Shown: piece by piece, positions 3,803-58,980 of the stretch
Layout of the letters: every line of letters starts with the position of its first letter
Numbering within the stretch: the first letter of the stretch is position 1
Origin: Escherichia phage vB_EcoM_ESCO10
Sequence record: OM386655.1
Length of the DNA stretch: 64,000 bases
Strand: one strand, 5' to 3'
Program-made: the position numbers and the translations under genes
The notes under the pieces: generated by a model
Databases searched by the model: none
Told to the model about the DNA's origin: nothing
Seen by the model: the letters and a program-made list of their open reading frames with translations, nothing else

Positions 3803-4018
3803 TATTTTTCCTTGGGCTCTAAATTAATAGAGCCATTATATCATTCGTTTTTGGATTTTTCTTTACGCTTTTTAGATGGGATTTGTTCAGGCCCTTTGTT
3901 GACGACTGCGCCTGAGGTAGTTCCGGAGGCAATATTAGATGGATTTCCACCCGCATCACCTGCGACCATATCTTCGTTCATGAACTCTTTATACGTTTTC
4001 ATAGGCTCCTGGCCTTAT

Positions 4019-9104: not shown

Positions 9105-9998
9105 TTAAAGGACCACGTCCTCATAACGTGGCATTTCGTACTCGGAATGAATATGAGCACCAAAATAAATGAATTCAGCCAAACCAGGATGGAATACTAA
9201 ACCAGGGTTCTCATGATAAATGATATGTGGTCTTGATTTCAGAATCTGGTAATATTCAACCTTACTCGGTTTGAATTTAATAATCTCTACATCAGGACGA
9301 TAGTCTCCACGTTTAAATGAATCGTTGGGGTCAGTGATATAGAGTCGAGCACCTTCAGCCGCAGCTCGGTCTACAACTCGTTCGAATTGGTAGCATTTAT
9401 CAGAGATACGAAATGGGTGAAAAATACCATCAATTTTAATAGGCGCTAGACCATCAGAGTAACGCTCAATTACTGCCGGATTAATTACCTTTTGGTCTAC
9501 AAAAATCTTATCAGAGGATGCACCTCGTGACACCAGGACGTCTTTCTGGCATTGATTCAGGACTGTAGTATAAATCGAACGTTCGACTGAAGCCACATCA
9601 ATATCAATGAATTCGTCGATATAATAACGAGGAACTTCAGGGTCCATTGTGATATTAAAGTTGAATTGTACAGTCTGGGCACCATCATAACCTGTGATAT
9701 CAGTTACCAACCCTGAGCAGTCATAGTATTCGATTAATGAATCGACTACGAACTCGTTTTCAGACCAGAAATGTTTACGGGTTTCATAAGCATTTTCTTT
9801 ATACCAAAGTGGCACAAAATTCAGTTCAGGGAATAACTCGATGCACTGGTTGATATCGCTCGAATTTCTAGGATAAGCCAGATAATCACCTGGCCGAGCA
9901 CGGTTTAAATGGAGTTGAAAATTGCCGTCCTTAAGGACAGCATATTCACCCGTTTCGTAACTACGCATACTGAAAATAGGAACGATAAACAGACTCAT
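9105..9998 (-). CDS. hypothetical protein in the beta-glucosyltransferase slot; candidate hmC DNA sugar transferase
   Basis: 297 aa; occupies the uvsX-42 position where T4 has beta-gt but does not resemble T4 Bgt; ATGA-coupled to gene 42; function inferred from position only. Confidence 0.6.
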   Translation of the reverse strand: MSLFIVPIFSMRSYETGEYAVLKDGNFQLHLNRARPGDYLAYPRNSSDINQCIELFPELNFVPLWYKENAYETRKHFWSENEFVVDSLIEYYDCSGLVTDITGYDGAQTVQFNFNITMDPEVPRYYIDEFIDIDVASVERSIYTTVLNQCQKDVLVSRGASSDKIFVDQKVINPAVIERYSDGLAPIKIDGIFHPFRISDKCYQFERVVDRAAAEGARLYITDPNDSFKRGDYRPDVEIIKFKPSKVEYYQILKSRPHIIYHENPGLVFHPGLAEFIYFGAHIHSEYEMPRYEDVVL

Positions 9999-10693
9999 TT
10001 CAGGAAACCTCGGACGTAGTCAAAATCACGTTCAAATACGTGTGCACTAACCATGGTGTGAGAATACGTACCCAAACCAACACCACACTGCTCTGCAATA
10101 AAGGCCATCAGTTTGCCCTGCAGATAGAAATCAAGCTGCATAACAACAGCACAGTTCTGTGAACGCATATGGGTATGTGCATACAAACGACCATCACGAA
10201 TGTAATACGTTACCGAATCAGTACAAGGATATTCTAGGGATTCGTCAGAATCAAGGAGAGCTTGGTCTTGTTCTTGGAGAATCTGGAACACAACTCTTCG
10301 CGAGTTAGGCTTTTCTTTAAGCTCTTTAAGTAGGGCTGGGAGCTGGGCCACAATTCGAGGTCCATAGAAAGTGTTGAAGTTTGCAGGCAATACGTCACTT
10401 TTCGGCTTATCAATGAACTTAGCAACATTAGGGTATTCCTTAAATGCTTCGGCGGCATCAGTACCACCGGAAATCATAAACTTCCAGAAAGATTCGGCAT
10501 AATCATAGTTGATACGATTAATACGAGGGTCAGTGAATTTATAGGTGCTTGCATCCAGTACTTCTACCGAAGCAGAACCAACTTCATAACAACGTCCGAT
10601 ACGAGAATCAACTGCAAACTGCGGAGCTTCCAGGATTTCTTCGTTCATTTGTTTAAATGCATTTTCAAAACTAACAGCGGTAATGTGTTTCAT
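9995..10693 (-). CDS. 42: dCMP hydroxymethylase gp42
   Basis: 232 aa; thymidylate-synthase-like; matches T4 gp42 from memory. Confidence 0.85.
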   Translation of the reverse strand: MKHITAVSFENAFKQMNEEILEAPQFAVDSRIGRCYEVGSASVEVLDASTYKFTDPRINRINYDYAESFWKFMISGGTDAAEAFKEYPNVAKFIDKPKSDVLPANFNTFYGPRIVAQLPALLKELKEKPNSRRVVFQILQEQDQALLDSDESLEYPCTDSVTYYIRDGRLYAHTHMRSQNCAVVMQLDFYLQGKLMAFIAEQCGVGLGTYSHTMVSAHVFERDFDYVRGFLK

Positions 10694-11226
10694 TTATTCA
10701 CCTTATTTTCAATATATTCATTCAGACGTTTTAATTCTACCATATCAACATTAAGCAAATTATTATGGCCATCATGATTTAAGATTTTAAACACGTTTTC
10801 AAAACATGTTTCGTATTGTCTGACAGTTAGGTTGAACTCATCTTTAGTTAATTTAATAAGGTCGTCTTCAAAGTCTTCATCCAACGGATTACGAGTTAAA
10901 ATAACCTCAATGATATTGAACTCTTCTTTGAATTCTTTCCAGTCTTTAAGCTCTTCTAATGGGTCCATTTCACCACGAAGGAATCCTGAGTAAACAATAT
11001 TACTAGGATACCCACGGTCTAAGATATAGACAAAATTTGGGTCTAAAAACTTATACAGAGTTTCAACTAGAGCCTTATCATTATCAGTTCCTAATGAAAT
11101 ACATTTACCGTTAATCTTCTTAGGAAAATCAATAAGCTTAAAATTAGTATTATTAAGTAATTTGTTAATTAAAGTAGACTTCCCGGAATTATCCGGGCCG
11201 TCGATAACAATGATTTTTGGTTTCAC
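10690..11226 (-). CDS. P-loop nucleotide/nucleoside kinase-like protein (dNK/TMK-like)
   Basis: 178 aa; Walker A IVIDGPDNSGKST at the N-terminus and DRGY motif; ATGA overlap with neighbours. Confidence 0.7.
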   Translation of the reverse strand: MKPKIIVIDGPDNSGKSTLINKLLNNTNFKLIDFPKKINGKCISLGTDNDKALVETLYKFLDPNFVYILDRGYPSNIVYSGFLRGEMDPLEELKDWKEFKEEFNIIEVILTRNPLDEDFEDDLIKLTKDEFNLTVRQYETCFENVFKILNHDGHNNLLNVDMVELKRLNEYIENKVNK

Positions 11227-11606
11227 GGATGATATGCCTTATAGGTTTCAAGAGTTCCTTCACGAACCATTTCTTTAAAGTGGTCGGGACGGATTGCTCG
11301 GTCATCAATGATAAAATTATAACTCGGCTTGTGTGTAAGCAAATTGTGATATTTCAATCCAATTTTTTCAAGGTTCTTAACCAATGCAGGAACTACTTCA
11401 ACCAAGATTCGACCAGGGCCACATGAAGTCATACCACGGGCGGTGAACAATGTAATCTCGCACCCTTCATCATAAAGCTTGTTAATCATGGACACCATTT
11501 CAGTGTCCGGTTTAAAGTTTTCATAATCACGGTCATGGTTCCAAATCGTGATTGTGTTATCTATATCAAAACATAAATGCGGCTTATTTTCTACTCGATG
11601 GGACAT
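11223..11606 (-). CDS. HAD-superfamily phosphatase (small, capless)
   Basis: HAD motifs I CFDIDNTIT, II LFTAR, III HKP, IV IIDDR; start chosen as the ATG overlapping the upstream stop (TAATG); track ORF begins 5 codons earlier. Confidence 0.75.
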   Translation of the reverse strand: MSHRVENKPHLCFDIDNTITIWNHDRDYENFKPDTEMVSMINKLYDEGCEITLFTARGMTSCGPGRILVEVVPALVKNLEKIGLKYHNLLTHKPSYNFIIDDRAIRPDHFKEMVREGTLETYKAYHP

Positions 11607-13279
11607 TAAATTTTCTTCCATTGTTTGTGGAGTTCAGTAGAACCTGTAGGTTTATATTTTACACCAGTTTCCTGGTCAAGCAAAACCCACTTATCAGGAC
11701 AACGAGTAATAATTTGTGCCGTAATAGGGTCACGAACTTCATCAACGAATTCACCTGTAATAAGCTTACGCTTACGAGGGTGCCGCTTAAGCAACACACT
11801 CAGTTGGTACAAACCATTGTAATAAGCACCTAGAGCTTTCAGAGGATTATTCTTAAAGTAACCCGCTAGCGCCATCCAAATAACAGCAATCCAGAGCTTG
11901 TGCTTAAATGTACACATCGGAATATCGTCTAAAGGCATGACCTTTTCAATATCAACGAATACGCGAGTTCCATTACGGGTTAAGCCACCCCATAGAGGGT
12001 CTGAGTTAAATTTATCATAGCCATCGATAGAATAAAGAACCTTAGCTTCATCATAAATCGCAGGGCCTTTAGAACTATTGCCGAAATAACCACGTGGGTC
12101 GATGATTTTAATATCACCTTCGTCCGACAGCATAATATTACTGTAGTGCGGGTCGCCATGAATAAGTTGATACGGTTCTTTATGTTCAGACAGAATTTCT
12201 AAGGCATGACGAAGAAGTTTTTCTGGATTACCAACCTTGAAATCGTTAACATGGGTGATGCCCTGTGGAGCAAAGCCTTCAATCAATCCAGCAATAGAAG
12301 CATTACGAATCAGGACCTTGTCCAATACTTCTTTCTTAACATCAGAATACCATTGCTCATCAGATGGGTTATCGATAGTTCCGCCAAATGAACGTAATGC
12401 ACTAATGACCTTATAAACCATGAGGACTTTAGTTTCTTTAGACATAAACCGGTAGGCGTCCGCCATAGTACGGCCAAAAATACGTTCCATCTTAATAAAT
12501 TCACCTGGAGCAAAGTCTACAATGCTCGGAACGAATTCAGAATCAATAGAATTATACCAATTGATTTCTTTAGATTGAATTTCTTTACCTAATTCGTTGG
12601 TTGGTACTTTAATAGCCAGATTCTCAGTGAATTCTAATTTATTAAATTCGCGATTAATTTCAGAATCTTCATGAGCCTTGGCCAGTTTCAGTTTATCGCC
12701 AACATCAACTACAAAGTCCAGCTTACGTTCAGTCAAATAAACCATTGAATCCAGATTGTCCGCAAGGTCTTCGCCGTAATTAGAGCGGTCGAATCCTGTC
12801 CAATTCGCCACCTGATACAAACCAACTACACCACCACCTGTACCAATTTCACGTAAGTACGGTTCTTCAAATGTAAAGCGACAATCGGTCCCATAGGTAT
12901 AACAATAATCATTACCCCACTCAACTTTATGGCCTTCAGGAATTATGTCACACCAGTTAAATAGAACGTTATGCCCGATAATATCTTCAGCAATGCAATC
13001 AATAGCATGAGCTGAACCGTTAGCAACATCCACATTACGAATAGTGAATTTAGGCTTATCACTAGTAATCATGTTAATGGATTTAATATAGCCTTTAACG
13101 AGGTCGTTAAATTTGCTGTGAATAACCAGAATAATTTCATCTGATTGGTTACTATACAAATCATACAAATGCTTTAATACCGTATGTTGTTTATAGTTAA
13201 CCAATACCTTAGGGATTTCATTAGTAATTGGATACAACCGTGAGCCAAGACCTGCGCCTAAAATAACAACCTTTTTCAT
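11606..13279 (-). CDS. bifunctional sugar-1-phosphate nucleotidyltransferase (N-terminal) / APH-choline-kinase-fold kinase (C-terminal)
   Basis: 557 aa from ATG with GAGGAA RBS; N-terminal VVILGAGLGSRLYPIT (GlmU/RmlA-type motif); C-terminal HGDPHYSNIML...IDPRG (Brenner catalytic loop of APH/CK kinases). Confidence 0.8.
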   Translation of the reverse strand: MKKVVILGAGLGSRLYPITNEIPKVLVNYKQHTVLKHLYDLYSNQSDEIILVIHSKFNDLVKGYIKSINMITSDKPKFTIRNVDVANGSAHAIDCIAEDIIGHNVLFNWCDIIPEGHKVEWGNDYCYTYGTDCRFTFEEPYLREIGTGGGVVGLYQVANWTGFDRSNYGEDLADNLDSMVYLTERKLDFVVDVGDKLKLAKAHEDSEINREFNKLEFTENLAIKVPTNELGKEIQSKEINWYNSIDSEFVPSIVDFAPGEFIKMERIFGRTMADAYRFMSKETKVLMVYKVISALRSFGGTIDNPSDEQWYSDVKKEVLDKVLIRNASIAGLIEGFAPQGITHVNDFKVGNPEKLLRHALEILSEHKEPYQLIHGDPHYSNIMLSDEGDIKIIDPRGYFGNSSKGPAIYDEAKVLYSIDGYDKFNSDPLWGGLTRNGTRVFVDIEKVMPLDDIPMCTFKHKLWIAVIWMALAGYFKNNPLKALGAYYNGLYQLSVLLKRHPRKRKLITGEFVDEVRDPITAQIITRCPDKWVLLDQETGVKYKPTGSTELHKQWKKI

Positions 13280-13339
13280 TATCTGTTCCTCAAGTGAATG
13301 TAGGTACATTATACACTATTTTTAATAAATTTCTATTGC

Positions 13340-13840
13340 TTAAATCTTATCTTTACCGTATTCCATACACTGTTCTAATGCGGCAGGCACTTTGGTCTTA
13401 AGCTTGTTGATTTGTTTCTTATAATCACGGGCCTTATCAAAGCTTTCAGTTTCGAGCATTTCGTAATAACGGGCCTCATGGATGGAAATCTGTAGATTGA
13501 TATGATTATAACACATTGAGTACAGTTTCTGTTTCTTATATAGGTCGTCTTGTCGCTTCATTTCTGCCTGGTGTTTGGCAAGTACGGCTTCGCGCTTAGA
13601 CTCTTGTTCACGTTGAAATTCAATTTCACGAGCCGCATATTTACCGCAGTTATTTCCGCATTGGTTATTAGCTCGGGTATAAGTAATTCCCGACCCGGCG
13701 CGGAACTTAACTTCACCATCATACTGTTTCTGTTCAGCTGCAATACGAGCTTTACCTACTTCGTCAGCTGTAATAGCTTCACCGTATTGGACTGCACACC
13801 CAGAGAGTAATAATGATGCTGCGATAATTAGCTTTTTCAC
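13340..13840 (-). CDS. lipoprotein (166 aa)
   Basis: signal peptide with lipobox LLSGC; charged coiled-coil-like remainder. Confidence 0.6.
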   Translation of the reverse strand: MKKLIIAASLLLSGCAVQYGEAITADEVGKARIAAEQKQYDGEVKFRAGSGITYTRANNQCGNNCGKYAAREIEFQREQESKREAVLAKHQAEMKRQDDLYKKQKLYSMCYNHINLQISIHEARYYEMLETESFDKARDYKKQINKLKTKVPAALEQCMEYGKDKI

Positions 13841-39463: not shown

Positions 39464-39850
39464 TTATTCTAACGTTAACAAATACTTAGTTTGGTAAAAG
39501 ACACCAGTGATGTCGTCCAAAGTCGATTGGATGGCCTTAGGAAGATTTTTGTAGATTTTATCAGATGCTTTAATAAGTTCATCAAGAAAATCTATAGGGT
39601 CTTTAGGCAGTTCTGAAGCAGACGGCAGTGATGCTTTATATTCTTTGCCACTAAATCCTAGATACTGCTCACTGAACTGGTCTAGTGGTCCTTGAACTTC
39701 CGTATAATAGAAGTCGTATGCTTTGTGTCTTGCATAGCTTTTGGTTTCCAAATGGGCTGACTTAAAATAGGCTAAAGAAACCAATAGCCAGCCAATATAA
39801 GAATCTACTTCAGTCCCTCGACTAAGTACGAAATCATTGAATTTCATCAT
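39464..39850 (-). CDS. hypothetical protein (128 aa)
   Basis: ORF. Confidence 0.5.
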   Translation of the reverse strand: MMKFNDFVLSRGTEVDSYIGWLLVSLAYFKSAHLETKSYARHKAYDFYYTEVQGPLDQFSEQYLGFSGKEYKASLPSASELPKDPIDFLDELIKASDKIYKNLPKAIQSTLDDITGVFYQTKYLLTLE

Positions 39851-45021: not shown

Positions 45022-45321
45022 TTAGAAAGAACCAGAGCCTTTAATTGTATTCTGACGTCCTTTATTTTCTACTTCAGAGTGGTCGATTTCGTAAGCTTGT
45101 GCTACACCAAAGGATTTTTTAATTTTAGCCAATGAGCCTTTAGAAATAACAATGTTAAAGGTGTTGCCTTTAGAAAAATCAACCAACTCTACAGTAACAC
45201 CGTTATTGGTTAAACTATTAACAATAGCATCAACATATTGCTGGTCTAAAGTTCCCTGAACGCCAATTTGAAAAGCTTTAGGTGCTTTAGCTTCAGTGAT
45301 AAATTCTTGATATGTTTTCAT
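45022..45321 (-). CDS. internal protein (IP) with capsid targeting sequence
   Basis: N-terminus MKTYQEFITEAK matches the T4 IP capsid-targeting sequence (MKTYQEFIAEA). Confidence 0.65.
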   Translation of the reverse strand: MKTYQEFITEAKAPKAFQIGVQGTLDQQYVDAIVNSLTNNGVTVELVDFSKGNTFNIVISKGSLAKIKKSFGVAQAYEIDHSEVENKGRQNTIKGSGSF

Positions 45322-45329
45322 ATTATTCC

Positions 45330-45689
45330 TTAAAGATGGTCAAGGGCTGGGTTATGAGGTTTTTCTGCTTTAGTAGTGTTTTTATGCCAATCTGATTTAG
45401 AAACACGGATGGCATCAGCGCCATAAGAACTCTTAAGGAGACCTTTTTTATTGTACACACTTATTGAAGTAAGAGAATCACCATTCCATGTAGCATGAAT
45501 GAAGTTAGATTTAGATTTAAGTTCTTTAGCCAAGCTCTGGTTAGTGGCCATGGAAGCAAAGTCTATACCTGTAACTTTAAAAACTTCAGATGGGTTCAGC
45601 CCTTCTTTAGCCTTAGCCAATTGTTCAGGAGACATACCTTCGTTAATGCGCTGAGTAGATTCAGTAATAAATTGTTTGTAAGTTTTCAT
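45330..45689 (-). CDS. internal protein (IP) with capsid targeting sequence
   Basis: N-terminus MKTYKQFITES. Confidence 0.65.
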   Translation of the reverse strand: MKTYKQFITESTQRINEGMSPEQLAKAKEGLNPSEVFKVTGIDFASMATNQSLAKELKSKSNFIHATWNGDSLTSISVYNKKGLLKSSYGADAIRVSKSDWHKNTTKAEKPHNPALDHL

Positions 45690-45731
45690 ATTATTCCTTA
45701 AGTTGATAGAAGTATTCTATCACGGATTTAA

Positions 45732-46148
45732 TTAAGCGTAAATAGCCTTACCATAATGTTTGTACCAGGTAGGGCGTTGTGCAATTTTTTCGTCTAAACG
45801 GGCTTGTGATATAGCGATAGAAGCTTCATGGGGAATATAATCACCACGGAATTCCTGAGGAATATCACTAATATCCTGGACTGTAGTATCCTTGATATTA
45901 AACCCGCGTTTTAGACATTCGGCTATAAGCTCAATTTGACGTTTACGTAAGAACTCAAGCTTATCGTAAAAGAATGTAACATGACCCGTGCCAAGGATAA
46001 AACCTGAGCTGATTTTAAAATCACGAACACGTTTACCATTAGCAACATGCTTACGAACTGCACTGAAAACACGTGGTAATTCACGATATTCAGCCATTAA
46101 GTGTTGGTCAGCCAATTCAGATACTAAAGTAAGGTTGATACGAGTCAT
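45732..46148 (-). CDS. denV: endonuclease V (pyrimidine-dimer DNA glycosylase) DenV
   Basis: 138 aa from [26 protein letters not shown] (near-identical to T4 DenV from memory); track ORF is extended 59 codons upstream; RBS AGGAG. Confidence 0.9.
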
Positions 46149-46162
46149 TTTTAATCTCCTGT

Positions 46163-46205
46163 GTCGGTATGAGAGTATCATATCACAACTACAGGAGATG
46201 TAAAC
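46163..46205 (-). promoter_or_regulatory. early-promoter-like element (divergent member of repeat family)
   Basis: GTTTAC with conserved spacer; located between e and denV. Confidence 0.45.
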
Positions 46206-46209
46206 AACT

Positions 46210-46704
46210 TTATAGATTTTTATACGCGTCCCAAGTACCAGTTCTAAACGTTGAAATGACTCGCTTAGCTCGGTTGGGGGTCTGTTTGTACCAACGAGAC
46301 TGTGCCAGGTTAACTGCGGCCTCATCCCAACGTTTTTGTTGGAGCATACGAAGAGAGTTAGTAAATCCTGCTACACCAGCTTCACCCATTTGGAAGACCA
46401 TATTAATTAGTGCGCAACGACGAACTTCGTCAAGCACATCATAAACAGGTTTCAATTTAGGATTACGCAGAATAGCTCTACGAGCATTTTCCACTGAACG
46501 ATTAAAGAGTTGTTCTGCTTCAGTCATTGTAATACGACCATTACAAACTCGACCCATAAGTTTATCAAGTTCAGCACGAGCAACATCTTTAGAAGGATTC
46601 TTGGTTATCAATTGACCGATGCCAATAGTCCAATAACCTTCGGTGTCTTTATAAAGATTTAAATCAAGACCTTCGTCTTGACGTAACATATCAAAAATAT
46701 CCAT
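46210..46704 (-). CDS. e: endolysin (T4 lysozyme)
   Basis: 164 aa; colinear with T4 lysozyme including catalytic E11 and D20 context and the C-terminal [19 protein letters not shown]. Confidence 0.95.
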
Positions 46705-53702: not shown

Positions 53703-54101
53703 TTATTTCATTTTTGCTAGGCAGATTTCATTGGCTTCCCATTGAGCTTGCTTAATAATAGCTTTGGACACAGGAACCTTTTGACCATAAGTGTTTGACG
53801 TCGAGAGAACAATATATTTGTTTGCCTCATTATGCCATCCCCGTGATTTTTCGCCATGAGTACCTTTAATTACAGCTGACACCTCAACAGAGCAGCCATC
53901 AGAACTAATCTTGGTGTCTACAATCCATTCATTTCTCTCGGCGGCTTCAATTTCCGATCTCATTTTTTCTTCATACACGGCAGCCCAATCAGTTTGTGTC
54001 AATCTTAAACTAAGAGCTTTCTTTAATTCTTTGGCAGCTTTTTGTTGTTCAGGTGTTAATGAATTATATAACTCTCGCATTTCTTTATCTTCGATATTCA
54101 T
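53703..54101 (-). CDS. hypothetical protein (132 aa)
   Basis: ORF. Confidence 0.45.
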
Positions 54102-54158
54102 TATGTTCTCCTCAAATTATGGGCTCATAATATCTCAATCATGAGCCCATGTAAACAA

Positions 54159-54432
54159 TTATTTCATATTATTGAAATATTCTTCTGCGATTTCATCGTT
54201 ATCATGGTAAATTTTAGTAGACAATTTAACATAACCTTCAGCAGCAAACATATTAACCACAACCTTTACAGTATACCACTGACCGTCGTCATTACCCATT
54301 ACTGCATAGGTTTCAAATATGGGATGGTCTTCACCAACAACTTTAATATCGTTAACAGTAGCACCAAATTCTTCCGGAACACATTTCATAAAGAAATTAA
54401 ACAGTTCACCGTAATTATCCATTTCATTCTCC
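54159..54432 (-). CDS. hypothetical acidic protein (87 aa from ATG)
   Basis: ATG after GGAGAA; track start is a TTG leader extension. Confidence 0.45.
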
Positions 54433-54464
54433 AAGTTGTTTTTCTGTATCAGTAGTTGATAGTT

Positions 54465-54506
54465 GTATAGTACCATGGAAGAACAGGGATGTAAACAGTT
54501 TTGTGA
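54465..54506 (-). promoter_or_regulatory. T4-type early promoter (repeat family variant)
   Basis: GTTTAC ... TACTATACAACTATCAAC. Confidence 0.5.
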
Positions 54507-54634
54507 AAAATTTTTTAAAAAGTTTTAGGGAATTCTAGGGAAGGGTGGGGCAATTAAAAGATAGGATAATATATTATAAAGGGTAGAAACTAAATGATGC
54601 CTAGAGAGGCCCAGAAAGGCCTAGATACCAAAAA

Positions 54635-54656
54635 GCCCCAACCTTTCGGTTGGGGC
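54635..54656 (-). terminator. intrinsic terminator (GCCCCAACC-GAAA-GGUUGGGGC + U-run)
   Basis: 9-bp perfect stem with GAAA loop on the minus transcript, a few nt after the stop of 54665..55126. Confidence 0.6.
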
Positions 54657-54664
54657 TAAGAATG

Positions 54665-55126
54665 TTATTTGATTTGTTTAGCAGACCAAATGCGGTCTTT
54701 GATGATTTTTTGGAGGTCTTCAACATACTCTAGGTCATGAGCATGTGGATTATCTTTAAAACTATGAGCTCGCGCAAGTTTCTGGCCTTCAGTCTTAATT
54801 ACCAAAAGTTCTTTAAGAATTGCTTCATATCTAGAGATAATTCCTTTAGCAATATTTTTTTCTTGTGCTGCTTTAGGGTCAGCCTTAGGAGCAGGTTTAC
54901 CAGAAGGTTTTTCGAAAGCCGCCCCAGTAGCAACCAGGCTTTTCCAGGCGGTGGTAACATAGTTACCCACAAAGCCTTCAGCTCTCATATCGTCGTAGAA
55001 CTTGTACCGAGATTCGTCAGAAGCATCTTTATAAGAATATTTACCTGCTTGGATAGCTGCTTGAGCTGCTGCACGAACATCAGAACTAGATGCTTCGGTC
55101 ATTAAAAATTCGTTGTAAGTTTTCAT
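54665..55126 (-). CDS. internal protein (IP) with capsid targeting sequence
   Basis: 153 aa; N-terminus MKTYNEFLMTEA; late promoter box about 29 bp upstream. Confidence 0.6.
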   Translation of the reverse strand: MKTYNEFLMTEASSSDVRAAAQAAIQAGKYSYKDASDESRYKFYDDMRAEGFVGNYVTTAWKSLVATGAAFEKPSGKPAPKADPKAAQEKNIAKGIISRYEAILKELLVIKTEGQKLARAHSFKDNPHAHDLEYVEDLQKIIKDRIWSAKQIK

Positions 55127-55154
55127 TATTGTTTCCTGTGATAATTAACTTATC

Positions 55155-55162
55155 TATTTATA
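55155..55162 (-). promoter_or_regulatory. T4-type late promoter box TATAAATA
   Basis: exact TATAAATA on minus strand upstream of the IP gene. Confidence 0.55.
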
Positions 55163-55166
55163 CCAA

Positions 55167-55194
55167 AAAGGCCCAACCTTTCGGAAGGGCCTTT
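55167..55194 (-). terminator. hairpin terminator (8-bp stem AAAGGCCC/GGGCCUUU with inner GNRA-capped helix)
   Basis: inverted repeat; could terminate in either orientation. Confidence 0.45.
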
Positions 55195-55334
55195 AACCTA
55201 GGGTAACCTTGTCGGGGTTCCACCTGCTAGGCAAGTGTTCGGGGCGCCGTTTCAGCTGTGATATAAGGGGGCATTAACAAAACATAAAGATTTATTAATG
55301 CCAGTCCTTAAACAGGGAACTTCAGTCCGACGAC

Positions 55335-55889
55335 TTACCGGTAGCGACCCGGTTTCTTGTTTGGTATTTCAAATTTTGTAGATTTAATATCTAATTTTTT
55401 AACTATAGAACTTATGTCATGAAAGAAAAACCATTCCCCATTTATATGATCTCTACTATAAATTGAGTGCATATATTTTTCAAGTTCTACCGCATCTTGT
55501 GAATATCTAAATGATACTATTTTAAAACTTCTAAACGGTGAAAATGTGTTGGCCGTTATAGCTCTAATATCAGGTTCTATACTTCTTCCTATTTTATAGT
55601 AATTAGGATTTGTAGTGTCTACCATTATGTATACAAAGGCCTGACGATAACTTTTTTCTATATCGAATTCATCTTTAAATTTCAATAGATTTAGAGCAGC
55701 CGTTCTACAAAATATTCCCCATATCGACGAGCGTTTAGCTTCGGTCATCGAAAAGAATTTTTTCTTATCTATGATTTTAAGAAAAGCCACCTTTTCAATT
55801 AGTTCTTGTGTTATTTCAAAATTACCATGGTGTATTAATCCAGCTTTTATAGCCAAATTAATTTGGTCCCAGTCTACATCACTTCTCAT
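55335..55889 (-). mobile_element. GIY-YIG/T5orf172-like putative homing endonuclease
   Basis: 184 aa; C-terminal VYIMVDTTNPNYYKIGRS...GEWFFF motif; visibly AT-rich; immediately adjacent to the tRNA genes (segB-like context). Confidence 0.55.
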
Positions 55890-55908
55890 AATATTATTCT
55901 CATTAATT

Positions 55909-55985
55909 TGGTCGGGGTGAAAGGATTCTAACCTTTAACCTGCGGTTTAGAGGACCGCTACTCTATACAATTGAGTTACACCCCG
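55909..55985 (-). tRNA. tRNA-Arg (anticodon UCU)
   Basis: hand-folded cloverleaf: acceptor CGGGGTG/CACCCCG, D-stem ACTC/GAGT, anticodon stem GCGGT/ACCGC with loop CCUCUAA, T-stem AAAGG/CCTTT, encoded CCA. Confidence 0.75.
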
Positions 55986-55989
55986 TGTT

Positions 55990-56064
55990 TGGTGGCCCTT
56001 GCTGGTTTCGATCCAGCTACCTATCAGTTATGAGCTGACAGCTCTCCCATTGAGCTAAAGGGCC
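55990..56064 (-). tRNA. tRNA with CAU anticodon (Met, or Ile2 if lysidine-modified)
   Basis: hand-folded cloverleaf: acceptor GGCCCTT/AAGGGCC, anticodon loop CUCAUAA, T-stem GCTGG/CCAGC, encoded CCA; 4 nt from tRNA-Arg. Confidence 0.75.
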
Positions 56065-56071
56065 TTAATTA

Positions 56072-56491
56072 TTAACTTGACCATCCCCAACCTTCGGAAG
56101 GACCATCGTAGTGTACACAAATATCAGGTGAAATATTAAAATTGGCTTCGTTCGAAGAAAAAACACCCAACTTTTTACCAAACTCACTGAAGCAGAATTG
56201 TTCGCCGCCTGGAGCCCAAACATCTTCAAATAAAACAGTGAATAGCCAGCCGGCAATTTCATCTGCATCAAATTCTGTTACACCTGAGCACATTTCATAT
56301 AACTCGTCATCACAGACTGTAGCCACGATATGGGCCGAATGTTCTTCAGATTTTAACCAGATGCGAATTAAATTACCATCAAAACAATTGTAGTTAATTT
56401 CGGATGGCCGGCAGTTATAAAATACTTCTGTAGCGATTTCTGGATTTTCCCAGGTTTCGTCGTTAAAATTGATAAGAATAGGAGTAATCAT
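56072..56491 (-). CDS. hypothetical acidic protein (139 aa)
   Basis: ORF with RBS GAGGAAAA. Confidence 0.5.
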   Translation of the reverse strand: MITPILINFNDETWENPEIATEVFYNCRPSEINYNCFDGNLIRIWLKSEEHSAHIVATVCDDELYEMCSGVTEFDADEIAGWLFTVLFEDVWAPGGEQFCFSEFGKKLGVFSSNEANFNISPDICVHYDGPSEGWGWSS

Positions 56492-56603
56492 ATTTTCCTC
56501 ATTAGTTGATTATTCTATTATGAAAGGCTCTTTGAGGGAAGAACCTTTGGTAATAGAGGGTACTTATTAATAATAACACACTGCTCTTAAAGCATATTAC
56601 TTG

Positions 56604-56984
56604 TTAACCTTCGTCAACAATAGTATGGGTGTTGGCATTAACAATCTGCCACCAGTCAAAACGGTTGGAACCATATTGAGGCTTATTCTCGTTTTCTTTA
56701 ATGATATCACGCAGTTCGTCTTCAGTAGCAGCTTTTGCAATTAAATCTGCATAACCGCCACGGGGATAATAGCTATCGCCAGCAAAGAGTAAAAAGTTTG
56801 TTTTAATATTCTTGAATTCTTCAAGAGTAATAACCGTTCCAGATGGTTGAACAATATCTACGTAACTATATCCTAATTTCTGGGCTTCATTTACTGCTTC
56901 AAGCAGGGTGTCATGGGCCCATCCGATTTGACAATCCGGTTTTTCAGATGGGTTGGCTTGATAATCTGCGTACACTTTATACAT
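56604..56984 (-). CDS. hypothetical protein (126 aa from ATG)
   Basis: start MYKVYADYQ with RBS AAGGTGA. Confidence 0.5.
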   Translation of the reverse strand: MYKVYADYQANPSEKPDCQIGWAHDTLLEAVNEAQKLGYSYVDIVQPSGTVITLEEFKNIKTNFLLFAGDSYYPRGGYADLIAKAATEDELRDIIKENENKPQYGSNRFDWWQIVNANTHTIVDEG

Positions 56985-56985
56985 T

Positions 56986-57171
56986 TTACTCACCTTTAGA
57001 GATTTTATCCATAACGAAAGAGATTGAACCAATTAAAAATGCCACTACTAAAGAGATTGTATTCTCAGAAGTTGAAAGCAAATTCAACATGAATCCTGCA
57101 AACATACTAAAACCAAAAGCAGTAATAGCGACCAGTGCAGTAACATTTCTAATTAATTCACAACGTTTCAT
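56986..57171 (-). CDS. small membrane protein (61 aa from ATG)
   Basis: ATG after GGAGAA; two TM helices. Confidence 0.45.
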   Translation of the reverse strand: MKRCELIRNVTALVAITAFGFSMFAGFMLNLLSTSENTISLVVAFLIGSISFVMDKISKGE

Positions 57172-57193
57172 TTTATTCTCCAATCACTCATTT

Positions 57194-57238
57194 GTTTTGA
57201 TAGGGCTATAGTATCATCACTAGAGCCCGTTGTAAACA
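57194..57238 (-). promoter_or_regulatory. T4-type early promoter (repeat family)
   Basis: GTTTAC ... ATACTATAGCCCTATCAAAAC. Confidence 0.55.
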
Positions 57239-57240
57239 AT

Positions 57241-57465
57241 TTATTCAACACCAGCTGCTTTCAAAAGTTTTTTAAGATTGGCTGTGCCCTGAGCAGAAAA
57301 CGTGACCTTGCCACCTTTTTCACTGATAGAACCAACCAATTTGGCAAGTTTATCATTAGGAATTTTTTTAAAATCGGCCAATGTTCCATCAAAGGTTTTT
57401 GAAACAAAAGGCAGTTCGTCTTCGTGTCTTTTAGCTTCTGTGATAAATTCTTGATATGTTTTCAT
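57241..57465 (-). CDS. small internal-protein-like protein with capsid targeting sequence (74 aa from ATG)
   Basis: N-terminus MKTYQEFITEAK from internal ATG; track start is a leader extension. Confidence 0.55.
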   Translation of the reverse strand: MKTYQEFITEAKRHEDELPFVSKTFDGTLADFKKIPNDKLAKLVGSISEKGGKVTFSAQGTANLKKLLKAAGVE

Positions 57466-57490
57466 TTTGATTTCCATTTGGTTGGTTTGT

Positions 57491-57531
57491 TTTGATAGGG
57501 TAATAGTATCATATTTATAAATGCTGTAAAC
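57491..57531 (-). promoter_or_regulatory. T4-type early promoter (repeat family)
   Basis: GTTTAC ... ATACTATTACCCTATCAAAAC. Confidence 0.5.
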
Positions 57532-57543
57532 AACTTTTTGAAA

Positions 57544-58221
<678 letters not shown>

Positions 58222-58229
<8 letters not shown>

Positions 58230-58980
58230 TTTTATTTCCTAATAATTTATCAATAGTAGTGTATAGTTCAGAAAGGGTTCCGTTATTTTCAATAACAACG
58301 TCACCCGGTAAAATTGGTAGACCCGCTTCAGTAATGTGCGAGTCTTGTACTTGACCGGTATCAGCGCGAACTACGTGAATAATCGTAGCACCCATCGCCC
58401 TGAGCGAATCAATTTCATGTGTTTGACGAACATCAGGTACGACATAGTATTTCGCATCAGAATATATTCTATCAAAATAGTCTAAAGCGAATAACTTAAC
58501 CCAATACATCTTATCAAATTGGTTAACAATAACATCGGTCCCAAGGGTCTGCATGAGACGACGTACTGACCAATTGTTAATATTATTTATTACTTCAAAC
58601 AGGTAGTCTTTTGTTTCTTCAGACAAATACTGGATAGTAGGGCCGTAATGATACTGGGTACAGACATCAATTCCTTTAATAGGAAGTATATTATTCAGTT
58701 TAACGATAGCATGTTCAAAGATGTCAATAACATCATATGGTTTTAAAGGAAGGATTTCTTCGCGGTTGTATCCAATACCTTCAAAACAATTAAAATCTAA
58801 TTTAGGCATATAGCTACGATCGAATACGGGGTCATCAGATATGTATTCGTAAGCTTCTGCTAGATACTTTTTAATAGGCCCAGCGAGCTGGAATTTAACA
58901 GAATCCATATTCTCAATTACATAGTTAGCAACGGTGTCCTTACCGCTACGTTTGAGTCCTACAATTGATATTAGTTTCAT
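58222..58980 (-). CDS. 1: deoxynucleoside monophosphate kinase gp1
   Basis: 252 aa; P-loop GLKRSGKDT; position as T4 gene 1. Confidence 0.85.

What the first reader, a model, noticed from the sequence alone, without database searches (positions are those of the whole stretch)
54665..57465. Two further capsid-targeting-sequence proteins dispersed around the tRNA genes
ORFs 54665..55126 (MKTYNEFLMTEA...) and 57241..57465 (MKTYQEFITEAK...) carry the same N-terminal targeting motif but lie apart from the tandem pair, each with its own promoter (a late TATAAATA box and an early GTTTAC element respectively). Four CTS proteins in one window suggests an expanded injected-protein repertoire.
Basis: partly seen in the sequence, partly recalled or inferred. 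Interest (0 to 1): 0.5.

Follow-up and report, generated by a model that had tools for sequence, protein, structure and literature searches.

The report
Two packaged internal proteins, T4-like phage
Both small genes carry the T4 "pack me into the capsid" signal: one is the known internal protein Ip8, and the other belongs to a widespread family that databases call hypothetical but that looks like another protein injected with the phage DNA.

Summary
Both ORFs lie on the minus strand of a T4-like (Dhakavirus-type) phage. Both begin with the T4 capsid targeting sequence (CTS). Five ORFs in the window carry this motif; about 0.0003 are expected by chance.

ORF 57465..57241 (74 aa) is Ip8, 95.9% identical to Ip8 of phage RB15. 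It sits in the classic hypervariable ipI slot between 57B (Acb1) and trna.4, bracketed by two early promoters. It is already known.

ORF 55126..54665 (153 aa) belongs to a family found in 511 phage records. Every listed record names it "hypothetical protein", and PHROGs lists it as unknown function. It has its own late promoter and a following terminator. It forms a roughly 535-bp cassette flanked by a 33-nt direct repeat, and T4 carries the empty site with one repeat copy.
- Relatives of only about 25-35% identity keep the CTS-like N-terminus.
- dN/dS is 0.07-0.18.
- The mature protein is basic (pI 9.3).
- The phage fD1 homologue, Gp140, was detected by LC-MS/MS in purified virions, though that dataset is unspecific.

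No fold or domain match indicates a function. An anti-defence role is inferred by analogy. Four CTS proteins is normal for this group, not an expansion. Modest interest.

The parts
54665..55126 (-). 153-aa CTS-bearing ORF. It belongs to family phrog_2280 and is the homologue of RB27_136, 005 gp250 and fD1 g140. Predicted mature protein is 142 aa, 15.7 kDa, pI 9.3.
55094..55126 (-). Codons 1-11 of the 153-aa ORF: the CTS-like propeptide MKTYNEFLMTE, with predicted cleavage before Ala12. Tyr4 and Phe7 are the targeting residues. The motif before the Glu is M-T-E, not the canonical L/I-x-E.
   Evidence: CTS residue mapping from PMC9026906
55155..55162 (-). T4-type late promoter box TATAAATA. Its first three bases, TAT, are the end of the upstream repeat copy.
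   Evidence: conserved in RB27, 005 and the Klebsiella phage homologue
55160..55192 (-). Upstream copy of the 33-nt direct repeat, a hairpin plus T-run at the 3' end of the rnaC-like RNA. The hairpin is weakened by two mismatches in this window.
54625..54657 (-). Downstream copy of the 33-nt direct repeat. It is an intrinsic terminator with a perfect 10-bp stem (54657..54634) followed by TTTTTGGTAT.
54855..54861 (-). A7 homopolymer tract inside the 153-aa ORF. Several database homologues are frameshift-truncated exactly here.
57241..57465 (-). ip8, a 74-aa internal protein precursor. Predicted mature Ip8* is 64 aa, 6.8 kDa, pI 9.6.
57436..57465 (-). Codons 1-10 of ip8: the canonical CTS MKTYQEFITE, with predicted cleavage before Ala11 (I-T-E fits the gp21 motif).
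   Evidence: PMC9026906
57503..57531 (-). T4-type early promoter GTTTAC-N17-TACTAT upstream of ip8.
57512..57519 (-). TATAAATA late-promoter box embedded in the spacer of the ip8 early promoter. It is shared with VR5 but not with 005, T4 or RB15.
57208..57237 (-). Second early promoter immediately after the ip8 stop codon. It drives the trna.4-like gene and forms the right-hand repeated regulatory cassette that brackets ip8.
   Evidence: same arrangement in RB15 and T4
55195..55340 (-). rnaC-like stable RNA region (context). Its 3' hairpin is the upstream repeat copy.
   Evidence: alignment with T4 and RB27 rnaC; no Rfam family
55909..56064 (-). tRNA-Arg(tct) and tRNA-Met(cat) (context).
57544..57999 (-). 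57B, the anti-CBASS nuclease Acb1, upstream neighbour of ip8 (context).
   Evidence: PF23474, E 7e-59
45022..45689 (-). The 'tandem pair' that completes the CTS set: a 119-aa CTS ORF (45689..45330, phrog_3966) and Ip7 (45321..45022, 99% identical to VR5 Ip7).

Best explanation
Both genes encode T4-type internal proteins. Their short N-terminal capsid targeting sequence should bind the scaffolding core while the prohead assembles. The prohead protease gp21 should then cut it off after a glutamate. The small basic mature protein would stay inside the head with the DNA and be ejected into the next host together with the genome.

Ip8 (74 aa precursor, about 64 aa mature) is a member of a family named in 1994. 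It sits in the ipI slot, a locus where ip genes are shuffled between repeated early-promoter cassettes. It can be transcribed from an early promoter and probably also from the late box embedded in it.

The 153-aa protein is a member of a second, unannotated family at a third locus, between the rnaC-like RNA and e.8.
- It appears to be made only late, from a promoter formed at the junction of a duplicated terminator hairpin.
- It is followed by the second copy of that hairpin, which acts as a terminator.
- Recombination between the two copies explains why phages such as T4 have the empty site.

The most likely job of both proteins after injection is to neutralise a first-line host defence, most plausibly a modification-dependent (type IV) restriction enzyme. 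That is what T4 Ip1, Ip2, Ip3 and Bas37_0260 do.

Shown here: the motif, the regulatory signals, the cassette structure, purifying selection, the family distribution, and detection of a homologue in virions (from the literature). Inferred: packaging of these particular proteins, the cleavage position, injection, and the anti-defence function.
For: Motif.
- Five ORFs have the motif, against about 0.0003 expected.
- Tyr4 and Phe7, the residues shown experimentally to direct targeting of IPIII (PMC9026906), are present in both ORFs.
- Ip8 also has Ile8 and Glu10, the processing residues.

Ip8.
- It is 95.9% identical to RB15 Ip8 and 98.6% identical to VR5 ip8.
- It matches phrog_8765 'internal virion protein' at E 3e-27.
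- It lies between 57B and trna.4, as T4 ipI does.
- The CTS is invariant or nearly so across 15 cluster representatives.
- dN/dS is 0.03-0.17.

153-aa ORF.
- The family is present in 511 phage records, 469 of them near full length.
- Only 11 representatives were found among 1.84 billion proteins, so the family appears restricted to T4-like phages and metagenomic contigs with T4-like tRNA-cluster context.
- Distant members keep the pattern x-x-x-[YF]-x-E-F-[LV] followed by [LI]-x-E while the rest of the protein diverges: MLKFNEFLAE, MLEYSEFLKE, MKFKEFLIE, MISFNEFV..LITE.
- The late promoter box and upstream hairpin are conserved in RB27, 005 and Klebsiella Jiaodavirus, and 7/8 versions occur in the two metagenomic relatives.
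- dN/dS is 0.07-0.18 against close relatives.
- The mature protein has pI 9.3, as basic as the other CTS proteins here (9.0-9.6).

Cassette.
- A 33-nt repeat flanks the gene.
- T4 has exactly one copy, joining the left and right flanks. RB27 has two.

Function by analogy.
- T4 Ip1, Ip2 and Ip3 each inhibit a distinct GmrSD (PMC12373910).
- Bas37_0260, a CTS protein at the ipI locus, inhibits McrBC (bioRxiv 10.1101/2025.11.20.689424).
- The window carries the JS98-type gene cluster in place of gene 42 and beta-gt. A 2026 paper assigns this cluster in Dhakaviruses to a cytosine hypermodification pathway (PMC13326640). Modification-dependent nucleases are therefore plausible enemies of this phage.
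Against: - No direct evidence exists for this phage.
- The 153-aa allele here, like RB27's, has lost 4 residues of the propeptide. The glutamate sits at position 11 and is preceded by M-T, not the canonical L/I-x-E. Processing could be inefficient or absent, although targeting does not require processing.
- The fD1 virion dataset is unspecific. It includes 113 of 277 phage proteins and 672 host proteins, among them obvious non-structural enzymes such as thymidine kinase and NudE. Detection there is weak support.
- Neither predicted structure resembles IPI* or any characterised inhibitor: no PDB hit at E <= 0.001, and only uncharacterised family members in BFVD.
- Models are of moderate confidence (pLDDT 75-77).
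- gp61.1 of T4 and of this phage also has a CTS-like N-terminus. To my knowledge it is not a recognised head protein, so the motif alone may not guarantee packaging.
- The genes for gp21 and gp22 lie outside the window.
Confidence: 0.75

Rival explanations
1. The 153-aa protein is packaged, but its job is structural rather than anti-defence. It would be a basic internal protein that helps head-core assembly or neutralises and condenses DNA in the head, as has been suggested for IPIII, with no role after injection.
For: - The gene is expressed only late.
- The mature protein is basic and has a lysine-, proline- and alanine-rich linker.
- It has a helical, elongated predicted shape.
- It is much more conserved (469 near-full-length copies at 60-95% identity) than typical arms-race Ip genes.
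- dN/dS is low.
- Reviews note a proposed morphogenetic role for IPIII and lysine-DNA contacts of internal proteins (PMC9026906, PMC3012670).
Against: - The gene is dispensable in nature. T4 and PST lack it and have a clean empty site.
- About 5% of database cluster members are frameshift-truncated.
- The C-terminal domain is swapped in Klebsiella phages.
- These are features of accessory, host-specific genes.
- IPIII itself has now been shown to be a GmrSD inhibitor (PMC12373910).
Confidence: 0.15
2. The 153-aa protein is not packaged at all. The MKTY... N-terminus would be a leftover of recombination between ip-type gene starts, or a shared translation-initiation region. The protein would act in the infected cell late in infection, and its detection in fD1 virions would be carry-over.
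For: - The fD1 proteome contains many non-structural proteins.
- This allele lacks a canonical L/I-x-E at positions 8-10.
- gp61.1 shows that a CTS-like start can occur on a protein not known to be in heads.
- The first 20 or so nucleotides of the five genes are similar enough to serve as recombination substrates.
Against: - Relatives with saturated synonymous divergence and only 25-35% protein identity keep the aromatic-4, Phe-7 and [LI]-x-E pattern. This argues for selection on the peptide, not recent DNA exchange.
- A dedicated late promoter times synthesis with prohead assembly.
- In T4, the first 10 residues of IPIII suffice to package foreign proteins (PMC9026906).
Confidence: 0.08
3. 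One or both ORFs are decaying remnants with no current function.
For: - The window has lost ip9 and ip3 relative to VR5.
- The upstream hairpin of the 153-aa cassette carries two mismatches.
- The A7 tract is a frameshift hotspot.
Against: - Both reading frames are intact and full length, with RBS-like purine tracts.
- dN/dS is 0.03-0.18.
- Promoters and the terminator are intact.
Confidence: 0.02

Closest known systems
Ip8 of T-even phage RB15 (Repoila, Tetart, Bouet & Krisch 1994; GenBank Z35082.1), one of the polymorphic internal proteins of the ipI locus
   Same: The 74-aa ORF is 95.9% identical over its full length. It has the same length, the same CTS and the same locus between 57B and trna.4. 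It is preceded by the same kind of GTTTAC...GATACTAT early promoter.
   Different: - In RB15, ip8 is the last of four ip genes (ip5, ip9, ip7, ip8). Here it is the only one in the locus.
- The promoter spacer here contains a TATAAATA box that RB15 lacks.
- I found no experimentally assigned function for Ip8.
T4 internal proteins IPI, IPII and IPIII (CTS-targeted, gp21-processed, injected; inhibitors of distinct GmrSD type IV restriction enzymes)
   Same: - The N-terminal CTS has the experimentally defined key residues.
- The mature proteins are small and basic.
- The genes are non-essential and variable in presence.
- The loci match: ipI slot, and ipII/ipIII slot for the tandem pair.
   Different: - There is no sequence or predicted-fold similarity of the mature parts to IPI* or to anything in the PDB.
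- The 153-aa protein is at a third locus not used in T4.
- It is two-domain and helical.
- In this allele it has a non-canonical M-T-E processing site.
Bas37_0260 (HIDEN-SEQ preprint, bioRxiv 10.1101/2025.11.20.689424), a CTS protein at the ipI locus that inhibits McrBC
   Same: It is a CTS-bearing gene in the same locus as ip8. It shows that non-T4 Ip families also target type IV restriction.
   Different: I could not retrieve its sequence, so homology to Ip8 is untested. It is said to share only the N-terminal signal with T4 Ips.
PeSL cassettes (promoter-early stem-loops; Arbiol et al. 2010, Comeau et al. 2014)
   Same: Repeated regulatory sequences bracket single accessory genes and explain their gain and loss by recombination. 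The two early promoters around ip8 fit this picture.
   Different: The cassette around the 153-aa ORF is bounded by a duplicated terminator hairpin that creates a late, not early, promoter at its junction. I did not find this variant described in the two PeSL papers, but I did not read them in full.

Membership tests
T4-type internal proteins (CTS-bearing head proteins) | N-terminal capsid targeting sequence with the residues shown to matter for targeting (aromatic at position 4, Phe at position 7 of MKTYQEFIAE) | tested here: met
   Both ORFs have Tyr4 and Phe7. These are conserved across the family alignments. Residue roles are from PMC9026906.
T4-type internal proteins (CTS-bearing head proteins) | gp21 processing site L/I-x-E at positions 8-10, cleaved after Glu | tested here: inconclusive
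   Ip8 has I8-T9-E10 followed by Ala, so the feature is met. The 153-aa allele has L8-M9-T10-E11, giving M-T-E before the Glu. Most family members have L-N-E at 8-10 and again at 12-14. Whether Met is tolerated three residues before the cut is not known to me.
T4-type internal proteins (CTS-bearing head proteins) | Physical presence in the mature head and release with the DNA | not testable with these tools
   Indirect evidence only. fD1 Gp140, a full-length member of the 153-aa family, was scored as particle-associated by LC-MS/MS in a low-specificity dataset (PMC8309999). I found no virion data for Ip8.
T4-type internal proteins (CTS-bearing head proteins) | Small, basic mature protein | tested here: met
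   Mature Ip8 is 64 aa with pI 9.6. The mature 153-aa product is 142 aa with pI 9.3.
T4-type internal proteins (CTS-bearing head proteins) | Encoded by a phage with a T4-type prohead core and gp21 protease | not tested
   Genes 21 and 22 lie outside the window. The window is co-linear with complete Dhakavirus genomes, and most tested proteins are 92-100% identical to VR5 (Imm 87%).
Ip8 family (RB15 Ip8; phrog_8765) | Full-length sequence homology and position between 57B and trna.4 | tested here: met
   95.9% identity to RB15 Ip8 and 98.6% to VR5 ip8. phrog_8765 at E 3e-27. Synteny.
IPI*-like type IV restriction (GmrSD) inhibitors | Sequence or fold similarity to IPI*, or demonstrated inhibition of a type IV enzyme | tested here: not met
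   No PDB match at E <= 0.001 for either model and no sequence match to any PDB chain. Inhibition cannot be tested here. Known Ips are mutually unrelated in their mature parts, so this does not argue against a similar function.
PeSL-type mobile regulatory cassettes | Accessory gene bracketed by repeated promoter/stem-loop sequences, with empty sites in relatives | tested here: met
   ip8 is bracketed by early promoters at 57531..57503 and 57237..57208. The 153-aa ORF is bracketed by a 33-nt repeat at 88% identity, and T4 has the single-copy empty site. The second case uses a terminator plus late-promoter junction instead of an early promoter.

The most novel reading that the evidence does not exclude
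The 153-aa protein would define an unrecognised, widespread family of injected internal proteins at a third ip locus, between rnaC and e.8. It would have a conserved N-terminal three-helix module and an exchangeable C-terminal module, and would disarm a host defence different from those hit by Ip1-3. Its cassette, built from a duplicated terminator that creates a late promoter, would be a late-gene counterpart of the PeSL shuffling elements.
Probability: 0.3. Interest if true: 0.5.

Novelty: new member of a known kind. Interest (0 to 1): 0.3.

Why it matters
Internal proteins of T-even phages have recently been shown to be specific inhibitors of modification-dependent restriction enzymes, and they help decide host range. 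Every Ip tested so far has had a distinct target.

Ip8 is a named but uncharacterised member of this group. The 153-aa family is present in about 500 sequenced phages, including many candidates for phage therapy, and every record listed calls it hypothetical. Recognising it as a probable packaged protein gives a concrete, cheap candidate for anti-defence screens. It also improves annotation.

This does not change how we think these systems work.

Tried and rejected
- Rfam scan of 54000-58000 at permissive threshold found only the two tRNAs. The rnaC-like RNA has no Rfam family.
- Pfam and NCBIfam gave nothing above threshold for any of the five CTS proteins.
- PDB sequence search with family profiles gave nothing.
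- Foldseek against the PDB for both AlphaFold models gave no hit at E <= 0.001, and IPI* was not recovered. Foldseek against BFVD for the 153-aa model gave only uncharacterised family members, plus a weak Serratia phage PS2 hit.
- I considered that the 153-aa ORF might be the 157-aa IpIV of phage PST, which has the same length as most family members. BLASTP shows only the CTS is shared.
- I considered that the 184-aa ORF next to it is the same gene as 005 gp249 in a swapped order. They are unrelated.
- Searches for literature naming the 153-aa family, by motif strings and by Ip numbers, returned nothing useful.
- The fPS-65 paper has no proteome.
- Repoila et al. 1994 is not held in the library.
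- I guessed an accession for BASEL phage Bas37 to compare Bas37_0260 with Ip8. The guess was wrong and I did not pursue it.
- A looser motif scan for further CTS variants gave only unconvincing extra candidates, for example 39850..39464, which is hydrophobic.
Full report
**What the window is**

The region is part of a T4-like phage of the JS98/VR5 (Dhakavirus) type. A megablast of 54400-58300 finds 882 phage records, but none covers 80% of the query, so the region is mosaic. Gene order matches T4: 3, 1, 57A, 57B, an ip gene, trna.4, trna.3, tRNAs, the e.x genes. All genes here are on the minus strand.

**Check of the observation**

ORF 55126..54665 encodes 153 aa beginning MKTYNEFLMTEA. ORF 57465..57241 encodes 74 aa beginning MKTYQEFITEAK.

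A scan of all six frames finds five ORFs beginning MK[ST]Y.[EQ]F[ILMV], against about 0.0003 expected:
- the two ORFs of the finding;
- the tandem pair 45689..45330 and 45321..45022;

The TATAAATA box is at 55162..55155, and GTTTAC-N17-TACTAT is at 57531..57503.
- The early-promoter pattern occurs 10 times, all on the minus strand, against 0.35 expected.
- TATAAATA occurs only 7 times, no more than chance. But three of the seven lie within 50 nt upstream of MKTY ORFs, which random placement would almost never give.
- One of those three sits inside the spacer of the ip8 early promoter (57519..57512). It is shared with VR5 but not with 005, T4 or RB15.

**The 74-aa ORF is Ip8**

- It is 95.9% identical to Ip8 of RB15 (GenBank Z35082.1, the 1994 record that lists Ip5, Ip9, Ip7 and Ip8 between 57B and trna.4) and 98.6% identical to VR5 ip8.
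- It matches phrog_8765 'internal virion protein'.
- It occurs in 107 phage records from Escherichia, Klebsiella, Shigella and other hosts.
- Across 15 cluster representatives, M1, K2, F7, I8, E10 and A11 are invariant, and T3 and Y4 nearly so.
- dN/dS against RB15, VR5 and 005 is 0.03-0.17.
- The upstream neighbour 57B is the anti-CBASS nuclease Acb1.
- The gene is bracketed by two near-identical early promoters (57531..57503 and 57237..57208). RB15 and T4 have the same arrangement. This fits the repeated promoter cassettes proposed to shuffle accessory genes in T4-type phages (PMC2839356, PMC4122927).
- VR5 and 005 carry ip8 plus ip9 here. This window has only ip8.
- The AlphaFold model (pLDDT 77) is a small alpha/beta domain after a disordered propeptide. 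It has no significant PDB match.

**The 153-aa ORF is a separate family**

*Distribution and annotation*
- It matches phrog_2280, 'unknown function', at E 1e-53.
- tblastn finds it in 511 phage records, 469 near full length. Every listed record annotates it as 'hypothetical protein'.
- An exhaustive profile search of 1.84 billion representative proteins finds only 11 relatives.

*Position and cassette structure*
- In RB27 it lies between rnaC and e.8. T4 has nothing there.
- The window has the same layout: an rnaC-like region at about 55340..55195, a hairpin, TATAAATA, the ORF, then a perfect 10-bp terminator.
- The two hairpins are copies of a 33-nt direct repeat, 88% identical and 535 bp apart.
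- T4 carries exactly one copy, joining the left flank of the upstream copy to the right flank of the downstream copy. RB27 has both copies.
- The gene is therefore a cassette that can be lost, or gained, by recombination between the repeats.
- The late promoter is formed at the left junction: repeat end ...GGTAT followed by AAATA.

*Conservation of the N-terminus*
- Close relatives read MKSYAQFLNEAVLNE|A or MKTYNEFLNESVLTE|A, with two L-x-E sites.
- This window, RB27 and a few others have a 4-residue shorter version, FLMTE|A.
- Distant relatives of about 25-35% identity begin MLKFNEFLAE, MLEYSEFLKE, MKFKEFLIE (Klebsiella Jiaodavirus) or MISFNEFV...LITE.
- The two metagenomic relatives I could place (P0035 and P0029) also lie downstream of tRNA genes (L008 and L009). 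Both have a hairpin and a 7/8 late box upstream.
- The Klebsiella homologue shares the N-terminal module (residues 4-71, 60% identity) but has a different C-terminal half.

*Other properties*
- dN/dS is 0.07-0.18 against RB27, 005 and fD1.
- The AlphaFold model (pLDDT 75) shows a disordered propeptide, a three-helix N domain (14-67), a Pro/Lys/Ala-rich linker, and a long helical hairpin (84-150).
- No PDB match was found. BFVD returned only uncharacterised family members.

**Evidence on packaging**

Yersinia phage fD1 (phiD1, HE956711) has a full-length family member, g140, of 157 aa. In the published fD1 virion proteome, g140 is marked PPAP (phage-particle-associated protein) at the strict threshold. 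So are the annotated head proteins g129 and g146, and g146 is IPI (PMC8309999 Table S3).

This dataset is not specific. It counts 113 of 277 phage proteins and 672 host proteins, including thymidine kinase and NudE. I treat the detection as supportive, not decisive.

**Mechanism**

From established T4 biology (reviewed in PMC9026906 and PMC3012670):
- The first 10 residues of IPIII suffice to target proteins into the prohead core.
- Residues 4 and 7 matter for targeting, and residues 8 and 10 for processing.
- gp21 cleaves after Glu in L/I-x-E.

Ip8 fits this completely. The 153-aa protein fits the targeting rule. Its processing site in this allele is M-T-E with Glu at position 11, so cleavage is uncertain, though targeting does not depend on cleavage. 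An internal L-K-E at residues 104-106 is a possible second site.

Late-only transcription matches the time of prohead assembly. Ip8 has an early promoter plus an embedded late box.

For function, the only guide is analogy.
- T4 Ip1, Ip2 and Ip3 each block a different GmrSD (PMC12373910).
- IPIII is needed on ECOR17 (PMC9391042).
- A CTS protein at the ipI locus of Bas37 blocks McrBC (bioRxiv 10.1101/2025.11.20.689424).
- The window carries the JS98-type cluster at 9108-13840 in the place of T4's gene 42 and beta-gt. A 2026 paper links this cluster in Dhakaviruses to a cytosine hypermodification pathway (PMC13326640). Modification-dependent nucleases are therefore plausible targets.

**Comparison and novelty**

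Ip8 is already known as a family, though I found no experimentally assigned function for it. I could not find the 153-aa family described as an internal protein in any annotation or held paper. It passes most, but not all, membership tests for T4-type internal proteins. I file it as a new member of a known kind.

'Expanded repertoire' is not supported. RB15 has four ip genes in one locus, and VR5 has four in total.

**Verdict**

The useful residue is a probable unannotated internal-protein family and its terminator-bounded late cassette. Interest 0.3.

Noticed in passing
window 3841-4002 (-): A fifth ORF has a CTS-like start: 53 aa, MKTYKEFMNED.... It lies directly upstream of the primase gene 61 and is the homologue of T4 gp61.1, which itself starts MKTFKEFIKED. 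It aligns with T4 major capsid protein gp23 residues 57-101 (40% identity, E 5e-10). The alignment crosses what I recall as the gp21 maturation site of gp23 (after FLTE; the site is from memory, not checked here), so F-M-N-E lines up with F-L-T-E. The family occurs in 1447 phage records, including Aeromonas, Acinetobacter and Vibrio T4-likes. A TATAAATA box lies 13 nt upstream of the ATG. It could be a decoy, competitor or regulator of the prohead protease, or a hint that the CTS derives from the capsid propeptide..
   Followed up: partly
window 54625-54657 and 55160-55192; T4 locus L003 8330-8400: The 153-aa gene is a roughly 535-bp cassette flanked by a 33-nt direct repeat (terminator hairpin plus GGTAT). 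T4 has the empty site with a single copy. The late promoter TATAAATA is created at the left junction..
   Followed up: yes
window 54855-54861 (-): An A7 tract lies inside the 153-aa ORF. Homologues in fPS-65, SfPhi01 and several metagenome clusters are frameshifted exactly here, giving proteins of about 93-112 aa that keep only the N domain and linker. This could be sequencing error, decay or slippage..
   Followed up: partly
window ~55195-55340 (-): An rnaC-like stable RNA region is conserved with T4 and RB27 rnaC at its 3' end (AACACTTGCCTAGCAGGTGGAACCCC). It matches no Rfam family. No rnaD equivalent was seen next to tRNA-Arg..
   Followed up: partly
window 55335-55889 (-): A 184-aa ORF with a MUG113/T5orf172 (GIY-YIG-like) domain is inserted between tRNA-Arg and the rnaC-like RNA. 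This is roughly where T4 has the homing endonuclease segB, so it is probably a mobile endonuclease-like gene. It is shared with VR5 (VR5_136) but unrelated to the 184-aa gene of phage 005 at the neighbouring position..
   Followed up: partly
window 57544-57999 (-): Gene 57B, directly upstream of ip8, is the anti-CBASS nuclease Acb1 (PF23474, E 7e-59). The ip locus therefore sits next to another counter-defence gene..
   Followed up: no
window 45022-46704 (-): The ipII/ipIII locus is rearranged. The order here is e, denV, a 119-aa CTS ORF (phrog_3966, unknown function), Ip7. VR5 has e, ip3, ip7, denV, and T4 has e, ipIII, ipII, denV. VR5 ip3 has no match in the window..
   Followed up: partly
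window 9108-13840 (-): A block of six JS98/VR5-specific genes (VR5_042-047 homologues, 92-99.7% identical) lies between uvsX and imm, in place of T4 beta-gt and gene 42. It probably corresponds to the alternative cytosine modification pathway proposed for Dhakaviruses (PMC13326640)..
   Followed up: no
window 57512-57519 (-): A perfect late-promoter box is embedded in the spacer of the early promoter upstream of ip8. It is present in VR5 but not in 005, T4 or RB15. It may give ip8 both early and late transcription..
   Followed up: partly
protein P0010 (metagenome): A 94-aa chimera joins a trna.3-like N-terminus (PF26894) to the last 31 residues of the 153-aa family. This is evidence of illegitimate recombination within this hyperplastic region..
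   Followed up: no
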